Of a stretch of DNA of 64,000 nt, positions 21,620 to 46,136 are shown piece by piece (within the stretch, counting starts at the first letter, position 1; each line of letters starts with the position of its first letter). Source of the stretch: Chromera velia (lineage: Eukaryota); assembly GCA_018398765.1 (NCBI GenBank), contig JAHBMJ010000399.1:62001-126000 (forward strand). Reading direction: 5' to 3'. The position numbers and the translations under genes are program-made. Below the pieces are notes generated by a model. It was not told the origin of the DNA. It ran no database searches and saw nothing but the letters and a program-made list of their open reading frames with translations.

Positions 21620-21625
21620 CGTGCG

Positions 21626-21676
<51 letters not shown>

Positions 21677-22129: not shown

Positions 22130-22357
22130 CCGACTGGTGGATCGACCGATGGAAACGGAAGTCAAGGGTTAATTGGCGTTTGCATGCAGGGGAGTTGGTA
22201 TGCAGGCCCAAATACTCATCGGGAAGCACGGAGCCGGGGACTCTTGGAATCGCACGTTTTATAGTATTTTAACTCAGAGATTTTCATCGTCAATCAGTCT
22301 GAATCGATGCAATATCAGAAACAAGCAAATGATCTTTACGTACATATTATGTATAAC

Positions 22358-23321: not shown

Positions 23322-23508
23322 TGTATAACGTATAAAATGAATAATTGAATTCATAACTCTAATGTTTGATTTGATTTGAGTTGGTTAAAGCTAGTTAAAG
23401 CTGTTATGGTCTACTCAAACCGTAATTTAAGTCTTTAATTGATCGTTCTGAGACCTTTTGCTGCCTATGTCCTTTGGCAGATATCGCGAGAATCATAATG
23501 GATGAAGT

Positions 23509-23580
23509 GGGAGCAGGTGGCAGACTGGGAAGCAGCTAGGGAAGCAGAAGGTCCCAGGTTCGATTCCTACCCCCACCTCT
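23509..23580 (+). other. tRNA-derived Pol III promoter (A box + B box), possible SINE head
   Basis: TGGCAGACTGG at 23518-23528 and GGTTCGATTCC at 23557-23567; no full cloverleaf recognised. Confidence 0.45.
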
Positions 23581-26500
23581 TTTACCTTTCGCGTGAAACC
23601 GATTCCGCGTGGCGAACCGCAGCCGAGACCGCGCGGTGTACCATAAGAATCAGAAATTAGCCGATTATGAAAGAAGAAAAATGCAGAGCTGAATAGTTTA
23701 AGTCGCATCCAAATTTAGTGGAGGACAATCAACCTCTCCAACTCTCAGTCTTGATGAGTCCTCACCTCCAATGAACTCTGATCGACTCAACCTCTTTAAG
23801 ATCGGATCCATCCCTTCCTGTATATATGAATACATGCACTACAAAGAAGAAACACAGTAGAGATGCCTAAATGTATAGAAAGAATCCAGACAAGAGGTCA
23901 GGCATGGAAGGCCTCCTGGCGATACTTCAGATCGAAATAGTCGATCCCGGGTCTCGTCTGGGCTAGCTGGAGCCCTTGGCTACGTGGCTCCCACCCTCAC
24001 ATGATCTTCCTGGAGGATAGACGTGCGCTAAAGCTCTTAAAGACTTCAGACTCAGACTTCTAGAGTAACAAGCAAACCTGATAGAATGATTGACCTTCAT
24101 ACACTTATAGAACCTTCTAGCTCTCACCTCTTTGGAGTTAGATGGTGCCTACGTCCTCTCTCATAGCGTGAGAGTAGATCATAACAAAGTTAGGATTGAA
24201 GCCATAAACTGCTGCAGGGCCTTTAGGGCTCTGGTAAACTCTCGTGAACCATACATGGGCACACAGTGTTTGTTTTAGCATTTCACGCAACAAAAAGAAC
24301 AACCTGACACTAACTTTCAAGATTGATGTTTTAAAACACTCCGTTGATATCCTAGGCCATGCACTCCATTTAAAAAAAAAAAAGTTTCCGATCTTTTTTT
24401 TCTTTTTTTATTTATCAACCAAAACAGATATAGTTTTTACGCAACATCCCATGCAACACTCTTACAACACAGTGACTTGAACAACAGTTGTTTGTCTCCA
24501 TGTTGACTGTCATAAAAAAAAAAATCATTAAAAAAAAAGTTTTTCAGAAACTTTTTCCAACTTTTTCCGTATTTTCCGTCGAATTTCCGATCTTTTATTT
24601 TTTTTATGTAGTATACACTGCACAGCCTATATAGCTACTACTGCTTTTTAGAGACAGATGGTCTAGATCCAATATATAGCAGCATATTATAGCTTATCTA
24701 AACTAGCTGATAAACTAAGTCTGATCTGTAAAGTTATATTTATAAAAAGGTCTGCGAGAGACCTCGAGAGACTTTAACTTCAAGTTGACGATGGTTTTTA
24801 AATTTTATCTTCAATACATCTGAAATTTGGACTCTGATCGTTCATCCACTATCAGATAGAACTACGAGGGGAGAAAAAGACCTAGCAAGGAGACATGTGA
24901 GGGCTGCAGAGGAGAGTGAGACCTGGAACATACCCTGAATTGTAAGGTGGGAGAGTTTGTTACCCTGCATCACAATGATGTTAATGCTACCTGGGCTGGG
25001 CTAGCAGCCGAGGCCTATCCAGCGGGGGCAGTGAATGGTCGCGAACCCATCTGGTCCCATCATCAAGTAGCCCATCATCCGGGAGGAAGAGGATGTGCCG
25101 GGGTGCCTGGGGCTGAAAAAGGACTTCCAGGTGCGCAAGCACAAGTAACAAACTCTCCAGTCATTCCAAGAAAGGCAAATCCAGTTCCAAAAAAATGAAA
25201 ACAGTACTGCTTGCGGTATTAGGAGTTACTTCTGCACAAATAAAAGCATAAAGGCTGGAGACCAAGACAAACACGTTGGACTACAAAGGTTCCTACAAAA
25301 AAATAGATACTATAGACGGTCTTAGTGTATATTTTATGATTTAGAGGGTTTGAAGACCGAACCGTTGCTGGAATGTTGCTGAAAGCTAGGTCAACGTAAA
25401 AAAATGAGCAGCAAGCTAGGCAGCAAGTCGCCAAGTGGCAAGCTTTTTAAGGCCTGTCGCCGGTATAGGCGGCAGCGCGACGAGGCGGCAGCGCAACGAC
25501 AGCTACCAACACCGCGGTGCTTCCAGGCTATGACGCATGCAACGACCTCGATTCGCATAGATCTTTGCAATACTAGCGCGCATGCATGTTGTAATATTTG
25601 ACGTGAAAGTGTCTTAGGCTCTCCTCTACTCTATGAACGTTGGTTTTACGTCGTTGGATTAGTAACTGGCTGGTTATCAGTGTCTGCTATCTTGTAAATC
25701 AAGTTGTGATCTTGGATCGATTCTTTTACATCATATCTGCCCCTTCTTTTCCAAACTTAGACTTCCAAACTTGGACTAGTAAACGCTAGTAAGCGCTAAA
25801 TATTAGTGAATCTGTAAGATAATTTCATATAAAATCATTGTTACTAACTATTACTAATATAGTTGTTAAGTTAAACTTAGTTTTAATTGATTGAAATTAA
25901 AGATTTAAACGGAATTAAATAACTTTAGTTTTAAATTAGGCCGCTTCAGCCGTGGCTGAGGCGGCCGAAGGCCACCTCGGCCGGCGATTTGATCCATCAT
26001 GCCAGGTCAATTCTTACCAACGTCAGGGGGTAGTGAAAGACTAGCATGCATGCATGGGCTAGGGTGCACCCCGCTTCACTTTCCAGGGCTATCTGACGCT
26101 TATCAGAAAAATGAAAACGACTGCAAATGATGATTGAGTATGATCGAGGTTTTAACTGCAAGTGACTTTTGATCGACGGATGATTGAGGTTTTTGTTATG
26201 CATGCCGCGTGCCCAAATATTAATGAAAGCGCCAGATCTAGCAAATGACTTTTATTATTCTTATGTTAACAATTTATCTAGGGCTCAAAAAACTTATCTA
26301 TGACTATCTATGACTCACTAGATAGCTAAGGACATCTCTTTCCTTGTCGTGTGTTTGATTGAGAAAAAGAGGGAGAGAAAGAGGTCGGTGTCCTATCTCC
26401 TGTAACGCGCCCTGTTTGCCTGTTTGACTGAGAAACTTTGAATAAGAGAAAGAGAGAGAGGAAAGAGGTCGGTGTTCCTTAACTTCCTTCTCTTGTTTGT

Positions 26501-27715
26501 CTCTCCAACTAAAAAAAAAAGGGAAAGAGAGGGGTTGGTCTTCCTTGAGTCCCTTCTCTTATTTACCTGTCTGACCGCCAGCGAGAAAGAGAGGGAGAGA
26601 GAGAGATCGGTGTTGGATGTCTGAGTATCCTTTTTCTTGTTTGGCTGTTTCACGGAGAAAAAGATGTAGAAAGAAGAGTCCATCTCAATTTTTTCTGTTA
26701 TTAAGACTTTTGTTTATCTTCGATCTTCAATCATCATCCTGGCTGTCTTAGTGTCTCCCTCTTATATACTCTCATATGGATCGGATCAACGCTTTATATT
26801 AATTGCATATAATCGCATCGATACAACGACTCTAGCAACGACCTCGGTTTGCTAGTTGCTAATTATGTATGAGTATATATGTAGGTACATATGAGTTCAC
26901 TTATGATTTTATAGTTGCTTTTTAAAGTTCACTTTTACAGATACCTAGGGCACTACTTAAATCACTCTCACTATCACTATACCTACTAGTATAGTAGTAA
27001 ATTCTAATTATAGATAAACTTTATTCAACTTTAAATTTTTAGAGAACACGCTTAAACAATTTATAAATTGTAGTTTAGACTAGAGCTTAAATTGCTGGAT
27101 AAATGGCTTTCCACAAAAGATAATAAACAAAGTTTCACAAACAGTAGGTTTGAGTTGCAAAAGTTTGCGTTGACTCTTTATAGAAGGGAATCAGCAGCAA
27201 CAGTGACAGCAGCAGCGCTGCACAGTGAGTAGACGGAGGAGAGAATGAAAACTTTGAGAGAAGAAGGGAAAGAGACAGACAGACCCGCTCGCCCATCCCA
27301 CCCCCATACCTCGATTGAGGAAAATCCTCGTCCCTCATTTGGTTTTCATAGCCTTCATGAATTGATTCGTTCGTTCGGCCAACCGACCCCCCAAACAACC
27401 GTCAGCCCTTCTGCCCGAGCAGACAGGAAGCGACAAACAAAGAACGGAAGAGAAGAAGGAAAGCGTTGCTTCGTTTTTATTTTTGCGCTTTTCCACGACC
27501 AACCGTGGGCTCACTGGGCTGGCTCTGGACCGTGCACCTTTGTGGGGGAGCGAAGCACACCATGCTCCGATATCGACTTGCGTCTGGTTGGGTGGGTGGA
27601 AGTGGGTGGGCGCTTCGGATTAAACGAATGGCCAACTGTTGCCAGATGCCATCATGCAATTCGTTCTCCTGGTCAATGTCGCAGCTGACAGTAACATCAC
27701 GAAACTTGTCGGGCA

Positions 27716-27749
<34 letters not shown>

Positions 27750-28807
27750 CACACACACTCGATCATACACAGACTCATACACAGACTCGCAAACACACAC
27801 ACACGCTCACGCGCGCGCGCGCGTAGTCAGCCCTTCTGCCCGAGCAGAAAGGAAGCGACGAACAGAGAATTGAAGAGAAGAAGGAAAGTGTTGTTTCGTT
27901 TTTGTCTTTGTGCTTTTCTTCCTCCACGCCAGCGCCCAAAGTCCCTCTTATCTCCCTTCCTTCTGTTTTGATCTCCCAAAGATTCTGAACGGTCTCCTCA
28001 TTTTCTTCCACCTTCCCCCTCCGTGCCGCGCATACACCCTCATGATCCCTCATGCATGCATGCAATGACTCTAAAGACTAAACGGGGATCACCGTCTCAT
28101 CAATCACCCTTTGAACCTTCCATCTTCGCTCCCGCCATCTTTCTTAAAGAAAGTTTGAGGCAAGATGATGCAGCAAAGAAAGAGAAATTCATAGGAAAGC
28201 AAGTTGCTCTTTGCTTTTCCCTTTTCTTAAATTCGTGAATTAATATCCTCCCTACCGTCTCCAAGTCGATCTGTCTCCTCGAACCCAAAGCCAGCGGGCT
28301 CACCTCCTTCCTGGGTGGGCCCCACTTTTGTTAATTCTACAGATTGTCTGATCGATCAATCGATCGATCGACCCGGTATTTCTGGCCCACACAGCGTCTA
28401 CTCTTCTTCTCATTAATGCCTGCCCTTTCTTTGATTGTTCGGTGCGTCTTCGGAATAATTCAGTTGATCGATCGATCTGTGTACGTACAGACTCTCCGGC
28501 ATCCGCTTTTTTTGTTGGTCAACTGGCGCTTGAATGTGTTCTTTACATCGTTCTTCCATGATTCCATTTTGGGGGGGCTTTCAACAAAAGAGAAAGAACG
28601 AGTGGGACAGAATATAACAGACGACGGAAGTTGTATGACAGATAGAAACAGTCTAGCGAAACAGTGCAGCAATTATAGAGATCGAGAAATGGAAAGGTCA
28701 TCAGAAGCTATCTCTGTGTTTCATTGTTTCTTCCTCACCCTGCCATCTCCTTCGTCTTCCTCTGCGGACTGATCGAAAAGGGTCCCCATCCCCCCCCGGT
28801 GCCCCTC

Positions 28808-31800
28808 CTACATGATAATCCTTCCCGATATCTCCCCGTTTGATCCCAACTCCTCAAAGCGCTGTCTGTACATGTTCAGCTCAGCCGTCTGGTCTTCCAA
28901 CAGCTGGGCCTGGTCTTCAAGCAGTCCTCTCAAAGCAGAAACCAGCTGCATGCTCAAACTCATGCAAACGACCAGAGCAATACCAGAGCATAAATGAGCA
29001 TTCAAAGTATATCAATCACCTCTTTTGCAAACAAATGTAGCGCCTACTACCTCCACGCCTCTCCCATCCGCCCATCTCTTGCTGTCTGTCCAGTTGCGTG
29101 TCCATCAAGTCGTCCGACACCTGGTTTGAGAAGCTTCTTTTTCGTTCTCTTTCCGCTTCTTGCACTTTGTCTTTTCTCTCTTTGGCATTCCGAAAGCGAA
29201 AACTTTGTTGCATCTGCCTGCTTGCCTGCTTATCACAAAAGGATTCAAATGTGTTTCTTTCATCAACTTAAAACTCAATTTGTCTTTGCGTTGAACTTCC
29301 GACGGTGTTCTTTTTTTTTTCTGTGAAAAAAGGGGGGGCAAGAAAAAGATCGAAGAAAAAAAGTGAATCTATTGACTGACCCCTACTTTTTCCTCGAAGT
29401 GGCGGTCCCTTTCGGAGAGTCGCTTCTTTAACAATGCTACGTGGGCATCTCTCTGCAAGGCTTGCTGACTATAAGTTTGAACCTGTCTGTGAAGCCCCCG
29501 GTTGTCTGCAAAGGCCTGCAGAATCTGTACCTCGCGTTCCTGCACTTCGTTTTCCACTTCTGGTTTTGCCGCCCTCAGGGTTCCTTCGGTTTCCTCCCTC
29601 TGTGCTTTGAAGCGCTCCCACTCTTGACGGAGAGTCTCTACTGTCTCTCTCTCGCACTCCAACTGCTCTTCCAAGTCTCGTTTCATCACAGCAAAAGAGC
29701 GGGAGGACTTTGATTCTTGCTGCTGAAGACGGCTGATTTCGGCTTCCTTTTCTTTTGCAGTAGAGAGGGCTGCCTGCTGCATTTCCGCAATTTTATTTTC
29801 GAGGCATTCTCTGTTTTGGAGCAGTCGGTGCTCTGCGGTCTGATATTGGGCATTCTTGTGCTCTGCTGCTGAGAGGCAAATTTGGAGATCCTCTTTTTTC
29901 TGTCTTTCCTTCTCAACGGCCGTCATCGGCTCTTCCTTCTCCTTCTGCAGGGTTGCTAGAGCTTGCTGCTTTTCTGCTTTTAGAAGCTGTTGCTTTGCGT
30001 AAAGAGACTCACAGAGGTACCCTGCTCCCTCCTTTTCCTTCTTCCACCTTTCTCTGTGTTCGTGCAGAACGTCCACCCTCTCCCTCTCCAACTCCAACTG
30101 CTCCTCCAACTGCCGCATTTTCTCCTCCAAGTCTTGCTGCAGGCAGCGGGGCAAATCCAAAAAAGAGAGAGATGACAACAACGATAAGGGCATGCACACG
30201 AAAACAAAACTCTCTACTCCAGATCTGAAAAAGAAGGGACTAAAACAACGAATTCCCCTAAATGCATGGGGAGAGGAGGACATTGATGGGAGAGGCGAAT
30301 AGACAAGAAAGGACAAGAAAGAAAGATGAACAAAACGCGAGGCCCAATCAAGCAGAGCAACAGATGAGGAAGAATAAACAGACACTCACCTTGCACTCTG
30401 AAACTTTCGTTTCTTTGAAGCCTCCGTGCGTACTGCTTCCCCCTTCATCTCCTGGAGGCTGAAGTGCCCCATTTAGTGACAGTGCGGCTGTTTGAATGAC
30501 CTGAGGCTCCGACTGAGCGGCAGGTTCTTTCAAATTGCCGTCAAATCTTGGCGGAGTGCCTGGAGAGTCCGGATGAACTTGACGGCAGGCACCGATGACT
30601 TCTGCGTTCTTCTGAGACTCCTCAGAGGAGCTTTGTGCTTCTTCCCGACTTCCCTCTGTGTGTGTACCTTGCGAGCAAGAAGATGCTCTTTCCCGTTCTG
30701 ATGAAAATGAGAGGCAGGACAGGGGCTGGGGACCCCCTCCTGCTTTGTTGTCATGCTCTGCCGTCTCCCGTCCTGTGATTTCATTAAGAAAATCCCTGTT
30801 TATTGCTGCTACTGCGTAAGCAGATTTTGATTCATTTTGCTGGAAAGTGCCGACTTCAGCAATGGGAAAGAGGGGGTGGGAAACGCTCGGTGTGCCTCTG
30901 CCACGTCTCCAAAGATGCTGGCAGTGCCTCTCTGCCCTGAGAAGCTCACGTTCTGCGTACAAAACCTCGTACTCTTTCTTCCACCTTTCTCTGTCTTCAC
31001 ACAGAACTTCCGCCCTCTCCCTCTCCAACTCCAACTGCTCCTCTAGCTGCTGCATTTTGTCCTCTAAGTCAAGACGGTTGGAAGACACCGTGACGGATTC
31101 TTGCTCCCGGAGACAAGAGACGTCAGCAATCATGGGAGGGCATGAGAGGGGGGCGGAAACAGGTGAAGGCGCTGCAAGTGTGGCGGGTCTCGGGCATTGA
31201 ACGTCAGCTGTCTCACTCTCTTCTTTTTCGGGCTCCCAAGGGTCGTCTGAGTTGTTCACCCATCCACCCTCTTCAGGGGTGCAGGAAGACCAATCAGATA
31301 CCACTTCCCCCTCCTCCTTCGTCCAGTGGACCTCTCTTTTTTCCGTCCACGCGACAATGTCTTGAAACAACAACTCTGCACTCTCCCTTTGTTCTGGATG
31401 TTTGAATAACTAATATTGTAAAATCGAGGGGATGCTTCCTTCGTGTGCTGATAGAAGGCAGAAGGCATCCAATTCCGTCACTTTGATCAATGCCATAACC
31501 TGCCTGATCTTGGGCTTCAACTCAAAGCCCTGCTTTCTTTCACTGACAGCAGGACGGTCGGAAGACTCGGCATCTTCCTGTTGAAGACGAGAAACGTCAG
31601 CAATGGGAGGGCTTGGCAGGGAGGCTGCGCTTTGTGTAGTCACTGCGCCTGTGCCGGGTCTCAGGGGCTCGTCTGTCTCCTTGTCTCCTTCAAGGTGGAG
31701 AGATGGCAACGAATGCTCAGAGAGTCGACGGGCGGGACTTTCTCCACCGACCCTCAGTGGGGACTCGGAGGAGCTCACGGTGGGAGAGATCTCGGCTTCA

Positions 31801-32048
31801 GCAGCAGCGGGCAGGGGGGTATCAGACTGAGTTGGTACAGTACCTGTGCTCTCCCTCCTGCAGAGAAGAGGAGACATGTAAGAATGAAGAAAGAACCGAG
31901 TGCTGCAAGGAAAGATAGACAGAAAAACGCCGAAGAAGCACGATGCACGAGAGAGCATGGACAGACCCGCGCACACAGTTAGGCTTGATATGCCCATGAC
32001 ACACACGCGCACACACGCACAAATGCTCACTCTCTCCCCCCCCCCACN

Positions 32049-32086
<38 letters not shown>

Positions 32087-32567
32087 TCCTAGGGAAGACC
32101 ACTGGCCGTCCCACTTAAGGTCGACTTGCTACTGCCAAGTGATTCGGATGGACGAAAACAGCAGCAGGGTCAGCGAGCACTGACCGAGTCATCGGGAGCG
32201 CCCGTCCACTCTCTCTTGTGTTCGCCGTGAACACCTCAACGTCTTCTTCGACAGACTTTCGGAGGGCGTCCAGTGCGGTGAAGAATTCCCGCATGTTAAA
32301 GTTCTGATACCACTCTAACGTGAGGCCCTGCAAGTTGTCCTCAAATTGCATTAGAGCTGCAATCGGGGCTGGTAGTGGAGAAGGAAGTTCAATCCCGAAA
32401 GTTCTCGCTCTCTCTCTCACATCTTTGATCAATTGGAGAATCTCTGGGATCTCTCTCTGGTACAAATACTGCAGATGCTTCCTGCGTAGCGTTAGAGACC
32501 TCTCTTGCTGCTCTTCTGCGGCTGTCCTGAAGGAACCAGCAACAACCGAATGGCGGGCGTCTGCCAT
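28808..32567 (-). CDS. Coiled-coil protein with internal repeats, function unknown; multi-exon, possibly degenerate or two genes
   Basis: Open segments at 32115-32567, about 31410-31857, 30389-31375, 29381-30140 and 28808-28950. Repeated DLE(E/D)KM.QLEEQLELERER...RERWKKE and I(A/S)(D/E)(V/I)SRLQQ.E modules. Phases are not fully resolved; one N at 32048. Confidence 0.55.
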
Positions 32568-33903
32568 GCTGTCCTGGAACGTTCTATGTACCTCCAGACC
32601 CGAGGTTTTAAAGGTAGTCTGAAGAGTGGTATATAATCCGTGAGTGGAAGGTATTGTTATATATATATATGTGTTGTTTCGTGAATTCCAACATGTTTCT
32701 GGTAGTCAGCGTTTCGTAATTTTGACTCAACAGACAAAGTGGCATACGGTACTCCACGTGTCAAGCAACATGAATGAGAATTGACGAGTGTCATGCAGTC
32801 AGATGTCAATCACGTCATTGAATGAAAGCTGCATGCATGCATATGTCATGGGCTCATATTGGGCTCATGCAGGGATCGTTTCGTAAGCTATAGTGCATGC
32901 CCCCCGCTTCGCTTTCCGCGGGGCCATCCTGTATGCATGCATGCTTTTTGCATGCATGCATGGCGCCGCGCGCGTCCCCCGTGGCCGCGCGCGGATCGAG
33001 ATGGATCGAGACTCCATGCATGCATGGAGACTAGTAAGTGCACTAGCCTGGCCTGTCAAAAAAGTGAGCTGGTGAAGATCACCAGGCCCATCAAATATCC
33101 CTGGCCTGTCAAAAAATTTCTTGAGGGTTCGTGGATGCATAGCACGTCCCAGCATACCGGCCGTTAGTCCCGTTAAAATAGCGTGTACATGGCCTGTCAA
33201 AATAGTCTGGCGCAGGCTGGTTAGTAAGCTCGGCTAGCAGGCTCACCAAAAATCCCTGGCCTGTCAAACATTTATAACCCGTCAAATATCCCCAGCCAGA
33301 TAATTTCAATTCCAAGGCACTCACCTTTTTCGCGGGCGTGAGTCATATGGCGCGGCGCGCGCAAGGCACTCACCCCGAGGGAGTCACCCGTATAGCGTTT
33401 GGTTAATTTTTCGCTTGCGGAACCATTTTTGACCGTAGTCTTTCCGGGGCTGGTCACGCGTGGTTAGGGCACAGGATTTGTATCTAAAAAAACGTATGCA
33501 GGCGCGTGTGGCTTAAAAAAAAAGGCTCGCTGGGTTAAGTATAGTAGACTAGCCTGGCCTGTCAAAAAAGTGAGCTGGTCAAGATCACCAGGCCCGTGAA
33601 ATATCCCTGGCCCGTCAAAATAGCCTGGCTCGTTAAAAATCCCTGGCCCGTCAAACATTTATGCCAATTTTATAGCCCGTCAAATATCCCCAGCCGGATA
33701 ATTTCAATTCCAAGGCACTCACCTTTTTCGCGGGCGCGAGTCATATGGCGTGGTGTGCGCAAGGCACTCACCCCGAGGGAGTCACCCATAGCGTTTGGTT
33801 AATTTTGCCTGGTCTGTCAAAAAAGTGAGTCGGTGAAGATCACCAGGCCTATCAAATATCTCTGACCTGTCAAAAAATTTCTTGAGGGTTCATGGATGCA
33901 TAG

Positions 33904-36806
33904 TATAAGACAATGAGGATGGTCGAGATGGACCGACGGAGAAGTATAGGAATCAAAAGTAAAGAGCTAGTCCTTAGTAGACAGACTAGAAACAGAAAGC
34001 CAAAGGATAATACTATGACCTGATGACCTGATATCCGAAGTCCGTACACATATACAAAAGTATGTCAATTGAAAGGACTAACCTGAGTAGTACTATAAAG
34101 AGGCTCAATCGATCGAGGCAGGATGGAATCAATACGCAGAGTGAAAGTCGATCGATCGATCTCGAGAGTCGATCGACTAATCGGCTCGCCATGCATCGAT
34201 GGGCCCTTTAAAAAATGCACATCTACCACTTCTTAATTGAATCGCTCCTTTCCTATTTGTTGATATACAAGTGTCATCCAGGCACTCATTATAATGCATG
34301 AAGTCGATCGCCAACAATACATGCACAACAGTTGCACAACATATCAAATGGTATGCGTAGATGGATCGATTGGTCCTTACGGCGACGCGTGCATGCGCGC
34401 GGACTGATGGCGTCACATGCACGCTACATCTCCAAATTAAACCTTCACAAGAATAATGCATGGACTCACATGCACCGACCAGAGACCAGAACAAATCAGA
34501 TGAGAATATGTACCGCGCATGTAAGGTGACAATGATTGGCGGCACATAACTGCATAAGGGTCGGCCCTATGCTTTTGTCTCCACACAATCTCACTGCTGC
34601 TCATGTAACCAGGACGTTCGTTCTAACAGATCACCCCTTTTGTGCACTGACGCTCTAGGGATTCGATCAGCAGAAGTGCAAACGACAAGAACGAAAGCAC
34701 ACGGGAAAAACGAATGAAAGCTCATTTACAAAGAGAGGAGACAAACGGAATGTAAGTCAGAAGAAACGTTATGAAAGAGATGAAACGATCAATCTTCAAA
34801 CGGAAGGCCTGAAATCAAGTAAGAGCAAGCAAACCAAAAATCAGATAAAATCAGATTAGGCATGTCTAATGACCGTGTGACCAATCTTGACCGATGACCG
34901 ATGACCAAAGATACAGAGACAGAAAGAGACTGAACGACCATGCATGCACTCAATTGTAAACTGAGTCTCATGTAACCAAAGAACCGATGACCAAAAAGCG
35001 AGTCTCTCCTTTCACAGATGGGAGGAGAGTAACAACAGAAACAGACCAGAGAACAGACCGATCTTCAAATCGGAGCCGTACCCCCAATCTAGCAGATCCA
35101 CTCCTTTGAAGTGCCGTAGTCGTCCGTGAAGGTAATCTTCTTTTCGTTCTTCACCTTGGCAGGGGAAGTAGAAGAAGAACCTGCGTGATGATCTTCGAGT
35201 GCATCTGCGCTTTTGGTGTTTCTGCACATATGTGCAAAATGGCCTCCCTTTCCACACGAGTTATACTGCTTGCCTCACGTAGGGTAGCGGTGTGAAGCCT
35301 GAGCTTCGAGACGGAATCCACAGTTGCGACACGTCTTCTCTCCTTGTTCAACTCTGTCAGCCGGGAACTTGTTCGGCTTGGTGGTGGATTTCATGGAGAG
35401 GCCGGCCATGGAAGAGAAGTTAAAAGTGTTGCCGATGACGATGGGGTTCTTGGTCTTGCCTGAGAGAGCCTCCACTCGGAAGAGACTCTTCATCGCATCC
35501 TGCAGGGCTGCCCAGGTGTCGCGGTCACCCATCAGGATGGCGACCTTCTCCTTCTTCTGGTCAGTGAGGGCGTTTATCAGGTAGACGGACTTGTCGGAGT
35601 CCGACATGGTCTGGCCAGCGGGGAAGGTGGCCTCGTACGCTGCCACAGCAGCAAAGAAGCGGTCAAAAAAGATCTTTGAGTCCTCGTCGTGTCGCTGTCG
35701 GATGTTGTGGATGACCCGCAAGGCGTCGACCCTCTGCTTCTTGATATCATCAAGGTAGAAGGCCTCCAAGTCCGTGAGAATCTCATCGAGGGCCTTCTGG
35801 TTCGCCGTCCAGTCGGGGACGACCCGCTCAACTCGCTACATGAACACAAGGTCAATGTTCTCCTCCCCCTTTGCTGCACCTACAGTTACGTCGAACGCTG
35901 ACTGCATATACATTTTCTTCAGGTCATCTTCTGTAGTGGTTGCTTGAAGAAGAACGACTGCTCTGCGGAAGCTTCTTTTCCACTTCTTAAAGTGCGTAAT
36001 ACCGAAGGCTTTGAAAAGGGGAACTGAAATGGAAGAGACAGTTGTCATCTTTCCAACCAGTCTGACACGTACTGATATAAGACAATGAGGATGGTCGAGA
36101 TAGACCGACGGAGAAGTATAGGAATCAAAAGCAAAGAGCTAGTCCTTAGCAGACAGACTAGAAACAGAAAGCCAAAGGATGATGCTGTGACCTGATGACC
36201 TGATGTCCGAAGTCCATACACATACACAAAAGTATGTCAATTGAAAGGACTAACCTGAGTAGTACCATAAAGAAGCTCAATCGATCGAGGCAGGATGGAA
36301 TCAATACACAGAGTGAAAGTCGATCGATCGATCTCGACAGTTGATCGACTAATCGGCTCGCCATGCATCGATGGGCCCTTTAAAAAATGCACATCTACCA
36401 CTTCTTAATTGAATCGCTCCTTTCCTATTTGTTGACATATAAGTGTCATCCAGGCACTCATTACAATGCATGAAGTCGATCGCCAACAACACATGTACAA
36501 CAGTTGCACAACATATCAAACGGTATGCGTGGATGGATCGATCGGTCCTTACGGCGACGCGTGCACGCACGCAGACTGATGGCGTCGCATGCACGCCACA
36601 TCTCCAAATTAAACCTTCACGAGAATAATGCATGGACTCACATGCACCGAGTCGGACCAGAGACCAGAACAAATCAGATGAGAATATATACCGCACATGC
36701 AAGGTGAATATGATTGGTGGTGCACAACTGCATAAGGGTCGGCCCTATGCTTTTGTCTCTACATAATCTCACTGCTGCTCATGTAACCAGGACGTTCGTT
36801 CTAACA
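33904..36806 (-). mobile_element. Gag-only LTR retrotransposon (Ty3/Gypsy-like gag) inserted in the Helitron-like array
   Basis: LTRs 33904-34628 and 36076-36806; TSD CATAG at 33899-33903 and 36807-36811; purine-rich tract AAAAGGGGTGATC before the 3' LTR; 1.45-kb interior holds only gag. The uninterrupted site is visible at about 33125-33160. Confidence 0.92.
35089..36048 (-). pseudogene. gag: Retrotransposon gag pseudogene
   Basis: One frame MTTVSS...WIC* with in-frame stops at 35836 (TAG) and 35275 (TGA). Decayed double zinc knuckle CRNCG...HRYPT*GKQYNSCGKGGHFAHMC. Confidence 0.85.
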
Positions 36807-37886
36807 CATAGCATATCCCAGCATACCGGCCGTTCGTCCTGTCAAAATAGTGTGTACATGGTCTATTAAAATAGCTTGGCGCAGGCTGGTTAGTGAGCTC
36901 GGCTGGCAGGCTCACCAAAAATCCCTGGCCTGTCAAACATTTATAGTCCGTTAAATGTCCCCAGCCGGATAATTTCAATTCCCAGGCACTCACCTTTTTC
37001 GCAGGCGCGAGTCATATGCGGCAGCGCGCGCAAGGCACTCACCCCGGGAGAGTTACCCGTATAGCGTTTGGTTAATTTTTCGTTTGCGGGACCATTTTTG
37101 ATGGTAATCTTTCCGGGGCCGGTCGTACATAGTTAGGGCGCAGGATTTGTGTCTAAAAAAACGTATGCAGGCGTGTGTGGCTTAAAAAAAAAGGCTCGCT
37201 GGGTTAAGTATAGTAGACTAGCCTGGCTTGTCAAAAAAGTGAGCTGGTCAAGATCACCAGGCCCGTGAAATATCCCTGGCCCGTCAAAATAGCCTGGCTC
37301 GTTAAAAATCCCTGGCCCGTCAAACATTTATGCCAATTTTATGGCCCGTCAAATGTCCCCAGCCGGATAATTTCAATTCCAAGGCACTCACCCTTTTCGC
37401 GGGTGCGCGCAATTAAGGCACTCACCCGTATAGCGTTTGGTTAATTTTTCGCTTGCGGGACCATTTTTGGCGGTGGCTTTCCGGGGCCCCCGCGCGACCC
37501 CCTTTTTTGACCGTGAGGGTTCGCGCGAGGCACTCACCAAAACGCATGCAGGGGCGTGTGGCTAAAAAAAAATGGCTTGCCGTATTAAGTATAGTAGAAG
37601 TAGATACCTCTTATCGCCTCTCCGGGCGTGTATTGGTCCGGTATGCATGGAGACTCCCCAACATGCAGCCGGTGACTCCGGGTGACTCAGAGTCCGGTCG
37701 TACCGTTTGATCATTGAATATATCAATATAGAAGCACCATGAAGCACTGAACAGTCTCAGTGAAGTATTATGAATAGTAGAAAGAGCGGTAAACAAAGTT
37801 GGAGTTGGGATAGCCATTCATTTTTTGTTTGAAGAGCCAAAAGCACAGATCGGTACACAAGAGAGACTGGGTCAGAAAGAGCAGGG

Positions 37887-38687
37887 ATGAATATCGACCA
37901 GGCGGTCGCCCAGCTCCGCTCTGCCGAAGCGTCGGACGAAGCCAACATGAAAGTGCCCCGAGCAGACGAGTCACAGAGAACAACAAAGGACGACATCAAG
38001 TCAATTGTGAGTGGAATGGGGAACGTTGGCGGCAGTTCTTTTTTCGGAATTCCTCCCTGCTTCCTGCCTGTAGTCGTGGAGACGGCACAGGCCGAGGCCA
38101 GATCCCTCAACCCAGGTGCTCCAGAGCCTTCACTTGATTTGCTTTCAGATGTGTGGATGTACTTTCGGTTCTTCTGGTGGGTTCAGGACAGGATAGGCAA
38201 GCTGAGGCATCAGGGCATGCACTCACACGCGGACGTGATACAGTACTTCACACAGCAGGGCCAAGGTGGAGAGACGTCGTTCATGAACAGCAAGGAGCGG
38301 CAGCTATTGGAACAGTTGGACACGGACACCCTCACGCGCCTTGCAAGAGTCTCTCTTGAGCTCTGTAAGCGTGTCGAGGAGGCCTTCAAGAAGGTGCGCA
38401 TTGAGGAAATCGACTCGGAGATGGGGGATGTGGACGAGTATGGGCAGACTGAGCTGAAGAGGTTCATTAACTTTCTCCTCAGGATGCAGACAGCAGAGGG
38501 CATTTGCGCCAGTCTACTGGTGAGTGGCAAGCACGAGGTGGAGGAGTTTGTGCAAAAAAACAGAGAGCTGGGCATCTTCCACGAGAGAGAGACTGCAGGC
38601 CTCGATTTGCTGTTCTGCCAAGCACTGCGGGAAAGAGGAGTCCCAGCAAAGGCCCTGGAGGAGAGAGGCCTGGCCCCTCTTCGGTGA
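37887..38687 (+). CDS. Intronless hypothetical protein, 266 aa
   Basis: ATG-initiated ORF with coding-like GC3 bias and normal amino-acid complexity; no family recognised. Confidence 0.7.
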   Translation: MNIDQAVAQLRSAEASDEANMKVPRADESQRTTKDDIKSIVSGMGNVGGSSFFGIPPCFLPVVVETAQAEARSLNPGAPEPSLDLLSDVWMYFRFFWWVQDRIGKLRHQGMHSHADVIQYFTQQGQGGETSFMNSKERQLLEQLDTDTLTRLARVSLELCKRVEEAFKKVRIEEIDSEMGDVDEYGQTELKRFINFLLRMQTAEGICASLLVSGKHEVEEFVQKNRELGIFHERETAGLDLLFCQALRERGVPAKALEERGLAPLR

Positions 38688-39006
38688 AGTGAGCAGGAGG
38701 ATAGAGTGACGCAGACAAGAGGAAACGCGGATCGATCGGTGCACGCGTATGGTAGTCAACATCATATGATATCAGATTCTCTGAGGTGCCTTTTTCCAAT
38801 CAATGATTGGTCCCGATTTAAATCCAATTGGAAACAAAAATTTCCGGCCAATTCAAAATATATATGATTTTCACGATGATTTAGATGTAATTAGACAGTA
38901 AATTGTTTTCAATGTTGAGTAAAGTGTAAAACTAGGTATAAAAAAAGTAAGAAACGTTAGGAAATGATATGTAAGAAATATGTTAGAATCAGTAAGAATA
39001 GGTTAA

Positions 39007-40290
39007 TTGATTGATTGATTGATATGTTCTGCCCTAGGGCCTTCCCGCTATGTCTATCTGTCGCCAGAGCTAGCAGGGCGGGGCGTTCCCCAGCCTAAGC
39101 TGAGGTATCAGACCCCGCCCTTGGGGCCCGCCAGAGTTTGTTGCCCTGGCCGCTGCTGCATGATTGTTCGTTATTCGAGCCACCGCTCTAAATCCATATT
39201 AGCTTTCCGGCCTAAAAATCGATTAAAACGGTATGCGATTTGGGCTTCCTCGCTCTTTTTATTTGCTTTATTAATCTTCTTCTGTGGCTCCCTCCTTCCC
39301 CACCCTAACGCTCCTTCGGTCGTCTCTAAGTTATCAATTGTCTCCTCATATTCTTTTGTTAGTCTCTCGATCGCCCGCTGCCTTCCAGTGATTTCTGCAT
39401 GTCTGGCCGCCAGAGCGTCTCCCTCTATGTGTCCGTACTATCCTGGACACTCCTTAAACACCTTCCATCTGAATGACGCCCATCCCAAAAACTTATCCAC
39501 TCCAGCATGACATTCATTCAACAGAAAGCAAAAAAGCGTCGAGTTATCTCTTTTTCTCTCTTCTCTGTTGAGCCCTTCTCTTTTTATGGCTGCCTTTCTG
39601 GCTCTTTCTTCCATCTTGCTATCCCATTTCTCTTCTATTTTCCTGAACATCTCTGCTCTCTCTCTGTCAAAAATAGGACATTCTGTCACCAGATAGATTT
39701 CATCTTCCACCACCTCGATTCCTAACCACCTTCGACAGAACTGGCACATCCTTTTCTGTAACGGCACCTTCTCTCCCCCCCTTACCAGAATTTTTCCCTG
39801 AGTCGCAGCCACGGCCCTGTCTCCTACCCTGTATGCTGCTCTCCTCCTATGTTCCGATCGCGGCGCCACTCTCGTATAGCAAAAAAAGGCTCTCACTATT
39901 CTCTCTCTGTCTATTTTTATTGTTGAGCCAACCTTTCTACCTGATCTATCTTTAAACAAAAAAAGGTGGAGACGGTTTCCGTTTGAGACCTTTCTGTGTA
40001 TGTCAGCCAATGGCATCATCACTCCTGTCAGTCCCCTCCATTTCGTTCTCTACCCCCTCTCTCAGGCATGTAAGGATTGCCTGCCCTACCGTTTCGTTTC
40101 TTTTCTCCTTTAAATCTCTGCCCACCGGATCGTTCTGGAAGCCACTTCGAGATCAATCAGAATAAAACCTCCTTCCATTATCAGCGTATCACAATTTTCT
40201 TTTTTTCTCAAACGCAAAACAAACCTGACAAATCTCTTTTGCTTCTTGTTAAATTCTGCATATGCGCTATCAGGTTAGAATGCGTCAAAA
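39007..40290 (-). mobile_element. 5'-truncated non-LTR retrotransposon (LINE) 3' end with (TCAA)n tail
   Basis: ORF 39438-40022 contains RMCQFC...VEDEIYLVTECPIF, resembling the LINE ORF2 C-terminal CCHC finger with H changed to Y. The 3' UTR ends in ATCAATCAATC. A second copy lies at about 44484-45660 in opposite orientation. 5' limit approximate. Confidence 0.8.
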
Positions 40291-40304
40291 TACAGGGCCC
40301 CCCC

Positions 40305-43301
40305 CGTAGCGTTGTGAAGGTTTGACAAGCAGTTGTGTCAGGATGAAATGAAGTACGCGCACATAATGTGTGTAGGGCACATGCATGCATGCATGCATGC
40401 CGGGAATTAATTGTGCAGCATGCAGTCTCTATGAAGACATCCGTTGTTTGTCTTATAGAACAGAGATAGCAGAACTACCCATGCATGACAAAACCTTTAT
40501 CTGTATGTAGGAGCTGATCCCAGCTACGACTAGCTGAGGGCCTACATCCCTACGTGGTAGCGAGAGCCTGAACCGGCCTCAGTGGGTTCGGGTGCTCTCG
40601 TTTCATCGATTGAACATGTGAACAGTCCATCTTCTGCTGTGCGAGTGCAAAGTTACGGATTAACTTTTGTCACCTGCACGCAGTCATATCTTGAAGTCCG
40701 TAATCAGTAGAGAGCCACGTCTTTCTTTTCCCTTGAAAGTTTGTTTCGATGTCGGTGCCTGATCGCCTCGGGGAGTTCGTTCTCGCTGTTGAAAGACTTG
40801 AGAAATTCAAGCATGTCTCTTTTCTCGAAGTGCACAAGAACGGTCGATCTCTTCTCAATGAAGGAAAAGAGCTTGCAGAGAAGCTCTTTATTGCTGCAGG
40901 GGGCAACTTAGAGACTCTGCAGTCCCGGCAGAAGCCCAACTTTTCCGTTTTAACAACACCGCCCTCCACCAATACAGAGGGTGTCACGAAGAAGAAGACT
41001 CGCAGAAGCAAAAGGATGATGGGAAGAGCCTGGGCCCACAAGCAACAAGCAAGACGAATGAAGAGAATGCACCAAAGTTGATGACGTCTTCGGAGAAGAA
41101 AAACAAAAGTGCAGATCATCTGTTCACGTTACCATCATCACAGGCAGATGGAAAGAAAGAGAAGAGCCCATGCAGAGGAAGTGGGTGGAGGCCTGTGGCG
41201 TCTGTTCCTGATGCCCCACCCAGTCAGGAAGAGTATGTTGAGACAGAAGTGAGTGGTCTGCGTGCTCTGCCCCCAAGAACATTCGTAGGAGCATCAGAGA
41301 ATGGCAGAGGAGATTCTGAAGTGAGAGAGACAGAAGACCCGTTTTCATACACTGGTTGACCGACAGACCAGGAAGACGTGAATATGCACCATCCCGCAAG
41401 TGGAGAGATGTAGCTGGAGATGCAGTTTGTAGGTCCGTCTGATTTTCCCCCTGTGATTGCTCCAGCCGGGGGACATTCATAGAACGAAGAGGTAGTTCCT
41501 ATGTTGCTTGGTGTTCTGCACTCCACTTTGCAAACGCAGGAGAAACCAGGGAGAGCCGAAAGGAGGACCGCAAAGCAGCAGAGGAAGAGGGAGAGAAAGA
41601 AAGAAACTAAACACCAAGCACAGTTGTATGCAATCAGACAAACTCGAACGGGAGATCATCAGACAACCCTCAGTGGTTCCCCTCAGAAGGTAGCTGTGCA
41701 GACGCAGGGGGAGAGCGTTTGCCTGCGCACGGGTTTGTGTAGGGGATCTACAGTGCAGGACAAGATGGGAAGAGCGGCTGCTAGGAACGGCTGTCCTTCA
41801 AGGCCGTAAAGAGAGGAAGGAGACGCGAAAAGAGTGGAAAAAGCAAGAAGCGCGGAGGGCTGAAATCAAAACGATTCGACAAGAGCAGACAGAGGCAAGG
41901 GGTTTTGGCAATCAGTCAATGTCTCGCCTTAGAGAACCTTTACCAGCTTTGGAGACCGCTCCTCGTAGATTTGGCTCCATTCGCCTCCGTGGATGTGTCG
42001 AAATGGGAGGTGTACGAGAAATAAGGGGGCTTGGGAGTTCCATGCCTCTGTTGAGAAGCGTTGCCCTGCCAAGAAGAATCAGCAGCATCTATCAATCCGA
42101 TCAAGAGCACACACCGAACACACAGCACGAGGGGTACAGAGTGAAAGAATTGCCTCCGTCTGTCCAGGCACTTTTCCAGGAATCTTGGGCATAATATGCG
42201 ATAGGAATGCCCATTTACTGAGCAAGAGAGTAAGCAGAAGGCATCATGCAGGGAAGAGACAATTGATGGGGGTGCAACGTAGTAAGTGATCATGCAGGCA
42301 TGGAGACGGCGTGTGTCTCTGTTCAGTCTTGTTGTACGACTATCCGATCTCATCCATTTGCATTCGTTCTTTTCGTTTAAACAGTCGTCTTGGCCTGTTT
42401 GTCTACCCTGGGGGATCAAATTCTCGCAGTGGTTGTCATTTGGTTTAATAAGGGAATATCTGTCCGCGCTCGGCAGGAATTTTTTTTTTTTTGTGATCGT
42501 TTCAATCATTGCGTGCCTTTGCTCAGCCGCGGGGCACGGCGTTGGAGGAAGGGGGCACGGTGTGGGTGAGGAAGGAAGGGAGGAGATGGAAACAGGTGGC
42601 ATGCAGTAAGGAGACAGAGCAAAGAGAGGAAGAGAAGAAGAGCTGACAGTGAGTGACGGCTAGAAAGGGAAGACTCTGTTTGCGTAGCATGATGGCTGGA
42701 ATAAGGCAGACATTCAGATCGATCAGAAAAAGAGAGAGCAAGAGTTGAAGTAGGCAGAGGTGGCTGTATTAGCTATGGATTAGCCAATCAGAGAAACAGT
42801 TCATCTCATGTGCTACTGCATTCCAGGTTCAAATCCCGTGAACGATTTTTCATCCTGCTTTTCATGTGAGAAAAGAGAGCCTACTTTGCAATTAGTCGTC
42901 ATAAGCCTAATCAGCAGCAAAGGCTGGAAGAAGGAGAACATGACTTGAGGTGACTTGCATAGATTTGAGACCGTTCTGTATGGACCGCGCCTTTTTGAGA
43001 TCAAATTGCCTCATGCTGATGAAGTGGCGGGACGCCACTCTAGAAGGAGGGGGCACGTAGTGTTGTGAAGGTCTGACAAGCAGTTGTATCAGGATGAAAT
43101 GAAGTACGCGCGCATAATATGCATAGGGTGCATGCATGCATGCATAGTGGGAATTAATTGTGCAGCATACAGTCTCTATGAAGACATCCGTTGTTTGTTT
43201 TATAGAACAGAGATAGCAGAACTATCCATGCATGACAAAACCTTTATCCGTATGTAGGAGCTGATCCCAGCTACGATTAGCTGAGGGCCTACACCCCTAC
43301 G
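40305..43301 (+). mobile_element. Degenerate non-autonomous LTR retrotransposon with CGTAG...CTACG termini
   Basis: LTRs 40305-40554 and 43056-43301; PBS-like TGGTAGCGAGAGCC at 40555; PPT AGAAGGAGGGGG before 43056; TSD CCCCC/CTCCC; fragmented internal ORFs with no RT recognised. Confidence 0.88.
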
Positions 43302-43409
43302 CTCCCCCTGGGTTTCAATGCATGCCGCTCACAATGCGCATGGAACCATTTTTTTTTTTTAGTTTATCAACATCGAGTTTATACAAACAAAAGCTTTTAA
43401 TGCCAATAA

Positions 43410-44277
43410 CTATAGGCGTGATCCCAATAGTTTTAAATTCTAGTTTAAATTTTTAAATAAAATGATGATACCCCTACTTTAACTGTAAACTTAAAAAAAA
43501 ACACTTTAAAACTACCCTACAAAGAACGCTAGACGCGGCTACAAAAGTTGTGTTTTTTTTTAGTTCTAGTTCTAACTTTTCTTCTTTATTAAAGTGTTTT
43601 CATATTTTAAATTATTTATTTAAAGTGAAATCATCATCACTTTAACTAGGCTCCCCATACGTAAAAAAATAAATAAATACATTTCGGCTTAACCCTAAAT
43701 AATATAGGCTGAATTAGTTTTTTTATTTTCTCATTTTTCTGCGTCAGCTAGGCTTTGAGCTTTCAAGTTTGAACATGAAGTGTCTGCTTCAAAAAAATAA
43801 ATAAATAAATAAAAAGTAAAAGTCGTTTTTGGCAACGCATGCCGGAGGCGAGTGGGGTGCTTTTTGCCCCCCCTTCTGCATAGGAGACCGGCGTTTTTCC
43901 GCAAAAAACTCGTTCTCATAATTGGTAAGGAGTTAGAAGCTGAAACTTTGTATAAGAAGACGTTGTAACGATAGAAAGAGAACTAAAGAACTATGGTATA
44001 AAACTTATAAAATTTGTATGAGAGCCTATGTTTCTAGAAATGATATAAAAAATCTGTTTCATAGTTCTTTTTCTATCGTTACAACGCCTTCTTACACAAA
44101 GTTTCAGCTTCTAACTCCTTACCAATTATGAAAACGAGTTTTTTGCAGAAATGCGCCGCTTTAGGGGGGCAAAAAGCACCCCACTCACCCCCAGCATGCG
44201 CAATTCACTTTTTTATTTTTTTATGTATGGGGAGCCTAGCACTTTAATGAAAATAAATATATTGGGATCACGCCTAG
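43410..44277. mobile_element. MITE, TIR CT(AT)AGGCGTGATCCCAATA, 8-bp TSD
   Basis: TSD GCCAATAA at 43402-43409 and 44278-44285; TIR core 43413-43429 is the reverse complement of 44260-44276. Confidence 0.8.
43646..44239. mobile_element. Nested MITE, TIR CTAGGCTCCCCATAC, 8-bp TSD, long internal inverted repeat
   Basis: TSD CACTTTAA at 43638-43645 and 44240-44247; internal arms about 43838-43985 and 44062-44200. Confidence 0.88.
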
Positions 44278-44483
44278 GCCAATAAACTGTTATGCATAAA
44301 GGTTTTTATCTGTTATCATTAATCATCATAGTTACTGTATAACTATGCAATGAATCAAACTAATTGAAGCAGTGTCTTCCCTAGTGTTTTCCTAAGTAGT
44401 CACAGATTTATACGTAAAAGCACTTTCAACTTATGTTACAATTCTTCTTGCATGAATTTACGGAAAACCTAGCAGAAAATATA

Positions 44484-45660: not shown

Positions 45661-46136
45661 TCAAACAACAATTTTTAATTATTTTTATAACTTTAGAATA
45701 GTACTGCAGGAATACGTCACAGACCTAGTAGCAGACTGATAAGTCACTTGAAGCTGACCGCGAAAGACCCTATGATTTTTTTAAATACTGATACATGCAA
45801 GCGAAATTAAGACATGCAATGAGCACATTAATAGTCGGATAAGAAAAAAAACGAGCAGGCAAATCAAGTGAGCCAAGTTGAACAACAAAAAATATTTACA
45901 TCCAGCTCTCTTCTAACTGTTCCAGTTCCATCTTCACTTCCCCTTGCTCGTTTGCTTTCAACACTCAAACTGATCGACCACCCTTCTTTCATCTCTTCTC
46001 TTCAAATTGTTTTCCCTGGGCGCCCCTTGGCACTCACTCACAAAGAACCGATCTCTCCTTTCTTTTCCCTAATTTCTTTCGCCTTTAATTCTTTTCCTCT
46101 CTCCTCCACACTGCCCCCCCATACACTCTTCCTCAA

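What the first reader, a model, noticed from the sequence alone, without database searches (positions are those of the whole stretch)
33904..36806. RIP-like CpA/CpG hypermutation between paired LTRs in an apparently non-fungal genome
My by-eye alignment of the two approximately 730-bp LTRs gives roughly 39 substitutions: about 21 are CA/TA or TG/TA, about 14 are at CpG, and about 4 are anything else. CpG deamination alone does not explain the CA/TA pairs. The gag lesions fit too: two Cys to Tyr (TGT to TAT), a TGA plausibly from CGA, and a TAG plausibly from CAG or TGG. Established: CpA to TpA mutation in duplicated DNA is the hallmark of repeat-induced point mutation in ascomycetes. Inference: a repeat-targeted cytosine methylation/deamination defence works in this probable chromerid, where I do not know of one being described.
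Basis: partly seen in the sequence, partly recalled or inferred. Interest (0 to 1): 0.85.

Follow-up and report, generated by a model that had tools for sequence, protein, structure and literature searches.

The report
CpA/CpG cytosine loss in Chromera retrotransposons
A jumping-gene family in the alga Chromera velia, a free-living relative of malaria parasites, has lost cytosines almost only in the C-to-T direction and most often before A and G, likely the scar of a repeat-targeted DNA methylation that resembles fungal repeat-mutation defences but is not shown to be true RIP.

Summary
The LTRs (33904-34628, 36076-36806) differ at 39 sites: 21 CpA, 14 CpG, 1 CpT, 0 CpC, 3 transversions. Per site that is 21/117, 14/86, 1/77 and 0/59 (CpA vs CpC+CpT, p=4e-7). 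The genome is Chromera velia, not a fungus. The direction is C-to-T: 57 of 61 single-base-explicable singleton amino-acid changes among 7 gag copies, against 1 T-to-C and 3 transversions. Gene regions keep CpA and lack TpA, and short genic duplicates show only a CpG excess, so the CpA effect looks confined to repeats. Limits: it is not tied to the paired LTRs; CpT and CpC are also hit family-wide; neighbouring repeats show no significant CpA excess (p=0.17); classical RIP indices are not met; strand clustering is inconclusive (p=0.10). Best reading (0.55): repeat-targeted CG+CA methylation followed by deamination, resembling the Zymoseptoria Dim2 mutator. Chromera has 5 C5-methyltransferase genes in a published count; I could not identify their families. 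Homology-sensing RIP remains possible (0.2). I found no paper describing this in chromerids.

The parts
36076..36806 (-). 5' LTR (731 bp; element reads on the minus strand; begins TGTTAG, ends TTATA instead of a canonical CA); carries 15 of the 36 T/A alleles
   Evidence: other copies run off into unrelated flanks at 36806 (table 7)
33904..34628 (-). 3' LTR (725 bp); carries 21 of the 36 T/A alleles
35089..36048 (-). broken gag gene (319 codons; stops at codons 71 and 258, two Cys-to-Tyr changes near the zinc knuckle); middle piece annotated as Cvel_3390; no pol seen, so likely non-autonomous
   Evidence: retrotransposon-gag clusters are the top ESM Atlas feature hits (0.93) for the open copy P0008; Pfam gives only a weak zf-CCHC match (E 0.044)
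34629..35088 (-). 3' untranslated internal part, ending in a purine-rich run next to the 3' LTR (likely polypurine tract)
   Evidence: sequence; function inferred
33899..33903 (+). target-site duplication CATAG, left copy
36807..36811 (+). target-site duplication CATAG, right copy
33046..33903 (.). left part of the tandemly duplicated repeat into which the element inserted
   Evidence: self-BLAST; spectrum
36807..37407 (.). second unit of that tandem repeat (92% identical to 33138-33738; 41 of 46 differences are transitions: CpG 16, CpA 12, CpC 6, CpT 6, ambiguous 1)

Best explanation
Copies of this Chromera velia LTR element have lost cytosines one way (C to T) on both strands, most often at CpA and CpG, likely because a de novo C5 methyltransferase methylates transposon DNA at CA as well as CG and the methylated cytosines are then deaminated and fixed as T. 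Shown: the spectrum in the LTR pair, the direction, its presence across the family, and its absence from the composition of gene regions. Inferred: methylation as the cause; targeting through transposon chromatin rather than DNA-DNA pairing; deamination either spontaneous or helped by the enzyme. CA is not a symmetric site, so equal CA and CG rates would need near-saturating CA methylation that is constantly re-laid, or CA mismatches that are repaired less well. The result is progressive inactivation of copies (two stops and two lost cysteines in this gag).
For: LTR pair: 35 of 36 transitions at CpA/CpG, rate 35/203 vs 1/136 at CpC/CpT, ratio about 23, lower bound about 4. Direction: 57 C-to-T vs 1 T-to-C singleton changes over 241 vs 295 possible sites in 7 genomic gag copies (p=5e-19). 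Contexts there: CpA 21/57 sites, CpG 16/57, CpT 11/50, CpC 9/77; CpA vs CpC+CpT 2.3-fold, p=0.005. In the contig pile-up the window has the T/A allele in 35 of the 40 rows shown (of 410), and 200 of 222 variable places in X1 are transitions. All 7 right-LTR-specific T/A alleles among those rows (of 15 in all) are C/G in most or all laid contigs. Gene regions: TpA o/e 0.19-0.42, CpA o/e 1.06-1.25; repeat-like regions: TpA o/e 0.63-1.14. Four short duplicates in gene regions: CpG 14/42 (p=0.003), CpA 4/40 (p=1.0) vs CpC+CpT 12/105. A published table counts 5 DNA_methylase genes in Chromera and 0 in Vitrella (PMC5890265, supplementary file 3). Chromera has about 30 Mb of transposons, Vitrella 1.5 Mb (PMC4501334). 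Precedent: Dim2-dependent CA-to-TA mutation of methylated transposons during mitosis (PMC8016269).
Against: No methylation data were seen, and no Chromera methyltransferase could be identified. Four neighbouring repeat pairs show no significant CpA excess (18/150 vs 23/291, p=0.17). In an older repeat mosaic, 10 of 19 non-CpG window-derived rows are CpA (p=0.14; 40 of 522 rows shown). The LTR pair was picked by a scan for oddities, so its purity is probably inflated. The gag contexts are inferred from protein sequences, assuming a star phylogeny. The repeat-like regions were chosen partly for low GC, and transposons can be TpA-richer from the start. The genic controls are small (about 390 bp). 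In Zymoseptoria CG is not mutated, whereas here it is.
Confidence: 0.55

Rival explanations
1. A true RIP-like system: duplicated sequences are recognised by DNA-DNA homology, in bursts and possibly at a cryptic sexual stage, and a RID-like enzyme converts C to T at CpA and CpG in both copies.
For: The linked LTR pair has an almost pure CpA/CpG spectrum (35 of 36), purer than the dispersed gag copies (p=2e-4). Right-LTR hits fall in 4 same-strand runs where 8.1 are expected (p=0.026). Loads differ between copies: P0006 has 2 of 3 transversions but 1 of 57 singleton C-to-T changes (p=0.005; two further multi-hit codons of P0006 were left out). CpA+CpG RIP is reported for Aspergillus niger and A. 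fumigatus (PMC4352252).
Against: Left LTR 11 runs vs 11.2 expected; both LTRs together p=0.10; no spatial clustering. Internal gag is hit as well as the LTRs. A 108-bp tandem array (57706-58281) has 0 of 72 CpA sites changed and a 90-bp array 2 of 31, though both may be young or homogenised. Only 2 of 127 one-kb windows meet RIP index thresholds and the element does not. An open, full-length gag copy exists (P0008). No RID-type gene was found or excluded.
Confidence: 0.2
2. A DNA cytidine deaminase with a CpA/CpG preference attacks transposon DNA without any methylation step.
For: Strict one-way C-to-T change; hints of strand runs and uneven loads.
Against: Hits lie on both strands, and the LTR differences arose after insertion, so deamination of minus-strand cDNA does not fit. 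A 3'-base preference is typical of methyltransferases, whereas AID/APOBEC enzymes read the 5' base (recalled). No candidate deaminase was looked for in the proteome.
Confidence: 0.1
3. A genome-wide mutation bias at CpA/CpG that is merely visible in repeats because they are free of selection.
For: CpG is depleted everywhere (o/e 0.57-0.92). Neighbouring repeats and genic duplicates do not differ clearly in CpA rate (18/150 vs 4/40). No direct single-copy SNP control was available, since X1 and X2 match the window.
Against: Intron-rich gene regions have TpA o/e 0.27-0.42 and CpA o/e at or above 1.06, the opposite of what a general CpA-to-TpA bias would leave. The CpA share of non-CpG transitions is 21/22 in the LTRs vs 4/16 in genic duplicates (p=7e-6).
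Confidence: 0.12
4. The direction is reversed: TpA is converted to CpA/TpG, as in integrated viral DNA of Bigelowiella natans.
For: A two-way alignment cannot tell direction, and 21 of 36 transitions are TA/CA pairs. The process exists in another alga (10.64898/2026.01.13.699255).
Against: 57 vs 1 singleton changes favour T as the derived state. The T alleles create stops and remove cysteines that other copies keep. Repeats here are richer, not poorer, in TpA than genes.
Confidence: 0.01

Closest known systems
Dim2-dependent mitotic C-to-T mutation at CA sites in methylated transposons of Zymoseptoria tritici (PMC8016269; passages read)
   Same: Repeat-restricted C-to-T change with CpA the top context; TpA gain in transposons; needs no known sexual stage.
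   Different: There CG sites are methylated but not mutated and CT is almost unmethylated; here CpG mutates as fast as CpA in the LTRs and CpT is hit in gag. The enzyme and the methylation are shown there and unknown here. Host is an alveolate.
Repeat-induced point mutation (RIP) of Neurospora and other Pezizomycotina, RID/Masc1-dependent, including the CpA+CpG variant of Aspergillus niger/fumigatus and Tuber melanosporum (PMC4352252, PMC12543289, PMC2621366; passages read)
   Same: One-way C:G to T:A on both strands of repeated DNA, CpA preferred, stops and missense changes in transposon genes.
   Different: Far milder (index thresholds not met); CpG equal to CpA; tandem arrays in the window not hit; homology dependence, premeiotic timing and a RID gene are untested. 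RIP is described as fungal-specific in those papers.
Deamination decay of methylated transposons in plants and animals (CG, CHG, CHH; DNMT3/DRM2-type CA methylation) (recalled)
   Same: Excess of C-to-T in silenced transposons; the order CA > CT > CC among non-CG sites matches the recalled DNMT3-type preference.
   Different: Here CpA mutates as fast as CpG, and CAG is not favoured (2/19 vs CAA 6/27, CAC 6/24, CAT 7/46), so it is not a CHG pattern.
TpA-to-TpG/CpA hypermutation of integrated viral DNA in Bigelowiella natans (bioRxiv 10.64898/2026.01.13.699255; passages read)
   Same: A dinucleotide-specific mutator of foreign DNA in a non-fungal alga, acting on the same CA/TA pair.
   Different: Opposite direction and no CpG component.

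Membership tests
RIP (fungal, RID-dependent) | One-way C:G to T:A transitions on both strands of repeated DNA | tested here: met
   57 C-to-T vs 1 T-to-C vs 3 transversions; both strands in both LTRs
RIP (fungal, RID-dependent) | CpA as preferred context | tested here: met
   LTR pair 21/117 vs 1/136; gag 2.3-fold, p=0.005; tied with CpG; not significant in neighbouring repeats (p=0.17)
RIP (fungal, RID-dependent) | Composition indices TpA/ApT >= 0.89 and (CpA+TpG)/(ApC+GpT) <= 1.03 | tested here: not met
   LTRs 0.66/1.30 and 0.58/1.32, internal 0.56/1.16; 2 of 127 windows pass. Thresholds from PMC2621366, whose second formula is garbled in the text; the form used is recalled.
RIP (fungal, RID-dependent) | Burst-like, strand-clustered mutation | tested here: inconclusive
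   runs test: right LTR p=0.026, left p=0.56, combined p=0.10
RIP (fungal, RID-dependent) | Triggered by sequence duplication as such, whatever the sequence | tested here: inconclusive
   108-bp array 0/72 CpA, 90-bp array 2/31, short genic duplicates 4/40; all short, young or possibly homogenised. No paralog found for the one host ORF tried.
RIP (fungal, RID-dependent) | RID/Masc1-type methyltransferase in the genome | tested here: inconclusive
   5 PF00145 genes counted without family names; my indirect searches reached no Chromera protein (10 of 150 hits named)
RIP (fungal, RID-dependent) | Acts premeiotically in the sexual cycle | not testable with these tools
   needs crosses or mutation-accumulation lines
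Methylation-linked (Dim2/DNMT3-type) mutation of transposons | 5mC at CA and CG in transposons | not testable with these tools
   no methylome available; paper searches found none for Chromera
Methylation-linked (Dim2/DNMT3-type) mutation of transposons | Mutation signature in repeats and not in gene regions | tested here: met
   composition contrast and genic duplicates; indirect, one 64-kb window only
Methylation-linked (Dim2/DNMT3-type) mutation of transposons | C5 methyltransferase genes present | not tested
   taken from a published count (PMC5890265 supplementary file 3), not verified on sequence
LTR retrotransposon (non-autonomous, gag-only) | Two LTRs, target-site duplication, gag gene, dispersed copies | tested here: met
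   Gypsy vs Copia not resolved; no standard primer-binding site recognised; 3' end reads TA rather than CA in both LTRs

The most novel reading that the evidence does not exclude
Chromera velia has evolved, independently of fungi, an enzymatic repeat-mutating genome defence: a C5-methyltransferase-type mutator that recognises repeated DNA and converts CpA and CpG to TpA and TpG. It would be the first RIP counterpart in an alveolate.
Probability: 0.25. Interest if true: 0.85.

Novelty: new variant of a known kind. Interest (0 to 1): 0.55.

Why it matters
CpA-directed C-to-T mutation of repeats is treated as a fungal trait. This is sequence evidence for it in the closest photosynthetic relative of apicomplexan parasites, for which I found no methylome paper. 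It predicts heavy non-CG (CA) methylation of transposons in Chromera, which one nanopore or bisulfite run can test. It points to the 5 unassigned methyltransferase genes as candidates, and to Vitrella (0 such genes in the same table, few transposons) as a natural control. Chromera can now be transfected (bioRxiv 10.1101/2025.08.26.672290; search listing and two passages seen), which opens a path to duplication reporters. A practical point: LTR-divergence dating in Chromera would overstate ages, since 35 of 39 differences here come from one fast class.

Tried and rejected
No whole genome was held, so no genome-wide test was possible. Scans of metagenome contigs by an LTR motif and by gag found no copies. 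Reverse direction (TpA to CpA/TpG) was rejected by copy comparison. A CHG (CAG) pattern was rejected. Fungal origin was rejected. cDNA-stage editing was rejected for the LTR differences (both strands, post-insertion). A single-copy SNP control failed because X1 and X2 match the window. A host-paralog control failed: the ORF at 37890-38684 returned only itself among proteins of 145-464 aa. The hunt for Chromera's methyltransferases failed: E. coli Dcm against longer proteins gave 28 hits, none named Chromera; a dinoflagellate domain gave 150 unnamed hits, of which I could name-check 10, none Chromera. This says nothing about absence. Six-frame Pfam scans of 21600-27301 and 38700-45901 found no family. 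No RNA holder is on record for the element; contigs of runs guessed to be RNA cover it, which is not evidence of transcription. No mention of Chromera in the main text of PMC5890265, PMC9998398 (nor in 12 of its 23 supplements searched) or 10.1101/2024.10.28.620566. The genome paper's main text has no 'methylation' or 'methyltransferase'. bioRxiv supplements were closed and may list chromerid methyltransferases.

Full report
What is there. The stretch is a 2.9-kb LTR retroelement on the minus strand, with LTRs at 36076-36806 (731 bp) and 33904-34628 (725 bp), a CATAG target duplication and a single broken gag of 319 codons; no pol is visible. It sits inside one unit of a tandem duplicate of about 600 bp. 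The middle of gag is 100% identical to Chromera velia CCMP2878 Cvel_3390, and all 5 hits of the homolog search are Chromera proteins. The genome is therefore a chromerid alga, not a fungus. An open copy of the gag matches retrotransposon-gag clusters best in the ESM Atlas.

Checking the observation. The LTRs differ by 39 substitutions and one 6-bp indel: 21 at CpA, 14 at CpG, 1 at CpT, none at CpC and 3 transversions. Per available site that is 21/117, 14/86, 1/77 and 0/59. CpA against CpC+CpT gives p=4e-7; CpA and CpG do not differ (p=0.85). A null that assumes nothing about direction gives p=8e-9. The CpA hits do not favour CAG. Public contigs support the letters: an X2 contig matches 147 bp of the right LTR exactly, and X1/X2 match five stretches elsewhere in the window without a difference.

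Direction. A pair cannot give direction, and a reverse process (TpA to CpA/TpG) is reported in Bigelowiella (10.64898/2026.01.13.699255, passages). I therefore used other copies. The alignment of 7 genomic gag copies has 274 codons covered by three or more sequences. Singleton changes are 57 C-to-T type, 1 T-to-C type and 3 transversions; 10 shared, tied or multi-hit cases were set aside. Possible sites were 241 and 295 (p=5e-19). The window's T alleles make two stops and remove two cysteines that other copies keep. In the contig pile-up the window has the T/A allele in 35 of the 40 rows shown out of 410, and 200 of 222 variable places in X1 are transitions. The direction is C to T.

How general is the CpA bias. 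In gag the contexts are CpA 21/57 sites, CpG 16/57, CpT 11/50 and CpC 9/77. CpA is 2.3 times CpC+CpT (p=0.005), which is real but far weaker than in the LTR pair (20 of 57 vs 1 of 36 at CpC/CpT, p=2e-4). Some CpT/CpC changes may predate insertion; that is an inference from alleles shared by both LTRs or by two copies. Four neighbouring repeat pairs pooled give CpA 18/150, CpG 27/124 and CpC+CpT 23/291: CpG is significant (p=2e-4), CpA is not (p=0.17; one overlapping pair left out). An older multi-copy mosaic at 22260-26400 has 366 transitions and 103 transversions in X1. Of its 22 window-derived transition rows among the 40 shown (of 522), 10 are CpA, 7 CpT, 3 CpG and 2 CpC (p=0.14 for CpA among non-CpG). 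So the LTR pair is the clearest case, and selection of an extreme example probably inflates it.

Is it confined to repeats. No strain SNPs were available. Two indirect controls agree. With microsatellites masked, seven gene-region segments have TpA o/e 0.19-0.42 and CpA o/e 1.06-1.25, while eight repeat-like segments have TpA o/e 0.63-1.14; TA/(TA+CA) is 0.54 in four repeat segments vs 0.22 in five genic ones, a far larger gap than for the other three pairs. The repeat-like segments were chosen partly by low GC, which weakens this. Four short duplicates in gene regions show CpG 14/42 but CpA only 4/40 against 12/105.

Is it RIP. Published passages define RIP as homology-triggered, premeiotic and RID-dependent, CpA-biased, with CpA+CpG variants in Aspergillus (PMC4352252, PMC12543289, PMC2621366). 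Met here: direction and context. Not met: composition indices. Inconclusive: strand runs (right LTR p=0.026, left p=0.56, both p=0.10) and action on duplicates as such (a 108-bp array has 0 of 72 CpA sites changed). The internal gag is hit as well as the LTRs, so linkage of the two LTRs is not the trigger. One weak hint of episodic action is that copy P0006 has 2 of the 3 transversions but 1 of the 57 singleton C-to-T changes.

Mechanism. The CpA/CpG rate is about 23 times the CpC/CpT rate in the LTR pair (lower bound about 4). That is within the range of ordinary 5-methylcytosine deamination (recalled), so no special deaminase is required. What is unusual is CA keeping pace with CG. The nearest tested case is Zymoseptoria, where Dim2 methylates CA in transposons and drives CA-to-TA change in mitosis (PMC8016269, passages), though CG is spared there. 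Chromera has 5 DNA_methylase-domain genes against 0 in Vitrella in a published table (PMC5890265, supplementary file 3 rows). I could not reach these proteins. I put repeat-targeted CG+CA methylation with deamination at 0.55, homology-sensing RIP at 0.2, a genome-wide bias at 0.12, a stand-alone deaminase at 0.1 and reverse direction at 0.01.

Novelty. Searches for Chromera with RIP, 5mC, DNMT, DNA methyltransferase or LTR terms, and for RIP with alveolates, listed nothing that describes this (judged from listings and a few opened papers; the library lacks most subscription journals). Earlier notes of this scan held nothing from this genome or its look-alikes. The kind of process is known from fungi and, in CG form, from many eukaryotes; the host lineage and the equal CA/CG rate are new as far as I could see. 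Verdict: a real, well-supported signature, a new variant of a known kind, with the mechanism inferred.

Noticed in passing
window gene regions, e.g. 1500-21600, 27300-32700, 46137-62300: TpA is very strongly depleted in genic DNA (o/e 0.19-0.42; 0.32 even at codon boundaries of the long exon), with mild CpG depletion (0.57-0.76). Cause unexplained.
   Followed up: partly
33904-33905 and 36076-36077 (+ strand): Both LTRs end in TA where LTRs usually end in CA on the element strand; either the same CpA was hit in both LTRs or the family has a non-canonical end.
   Followed up: no
33046-33903 and 36807-37490: The target repeat has many internal copies of a CCTGGCCTGTCAAAA-like motif and 18-bp sub-repeats. 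Several of its CpC changes fall in GGCC. Element type unknown.
   Followed up: partly
22260-26400: Mosaic of multi-copy repeats (summed contig depth up to 200 times single copy). By eye it holds a tRNA-like stretch near 23500-23580 (not called by ARAGORN) and a fragment near 24900-25150 resembling a non-LTR element C-terminus (recalled motif).
   Followed up: partly
39003-39159 and 45485-45641: 157-bp inverted repeats 6.3 kb apart, enclosing a LINE-like zinc-finger fragment (39438-40049, minus; recalled motif, no Pfam hit), a 250-bp duplicated element (40306-40554, 43057-43301) and an imperfect palindrome (43836-44200); possibly a decayed DNA transposon.
   Followed up: partly
43300-45900 and 22200-27200: CTAG is over-represented in the AT-rich repeat regions (o/e 3.14 and 1.65 vs about 0.2-0.5 in genes), as expected if CCAG/CTGG were converted.
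   Followed up: no
57706-58281 and 56849-57238: 108-bp tandem array, 99.8% identical, and a roughly 90-bp array, 91-96% identical; neither shows a CpA excess.
   Followed up: partly
60259-61260 (+): FBPase-family gene (PF00316, E 2e-30) with what looks like a signal plus transit peptide; likely the plastid sedoheptulose-bisphosphatase.
   Followed up: no
16873-21400 (+) and 46137-52901 (-): A mitochondrial carrier gene (PF00153) with microsatellite-filled introns, and a 2254-codon low-complexity open frame.
   Followed up: no
P0031, P0036, P0040-P0189: An HhaI-like C5 methyltransferase family is found in dinoflagellates, a chytrid, a green alga and a choanoflagellate among the few named rows; no Chromera member was seen.
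   Followed up: partly
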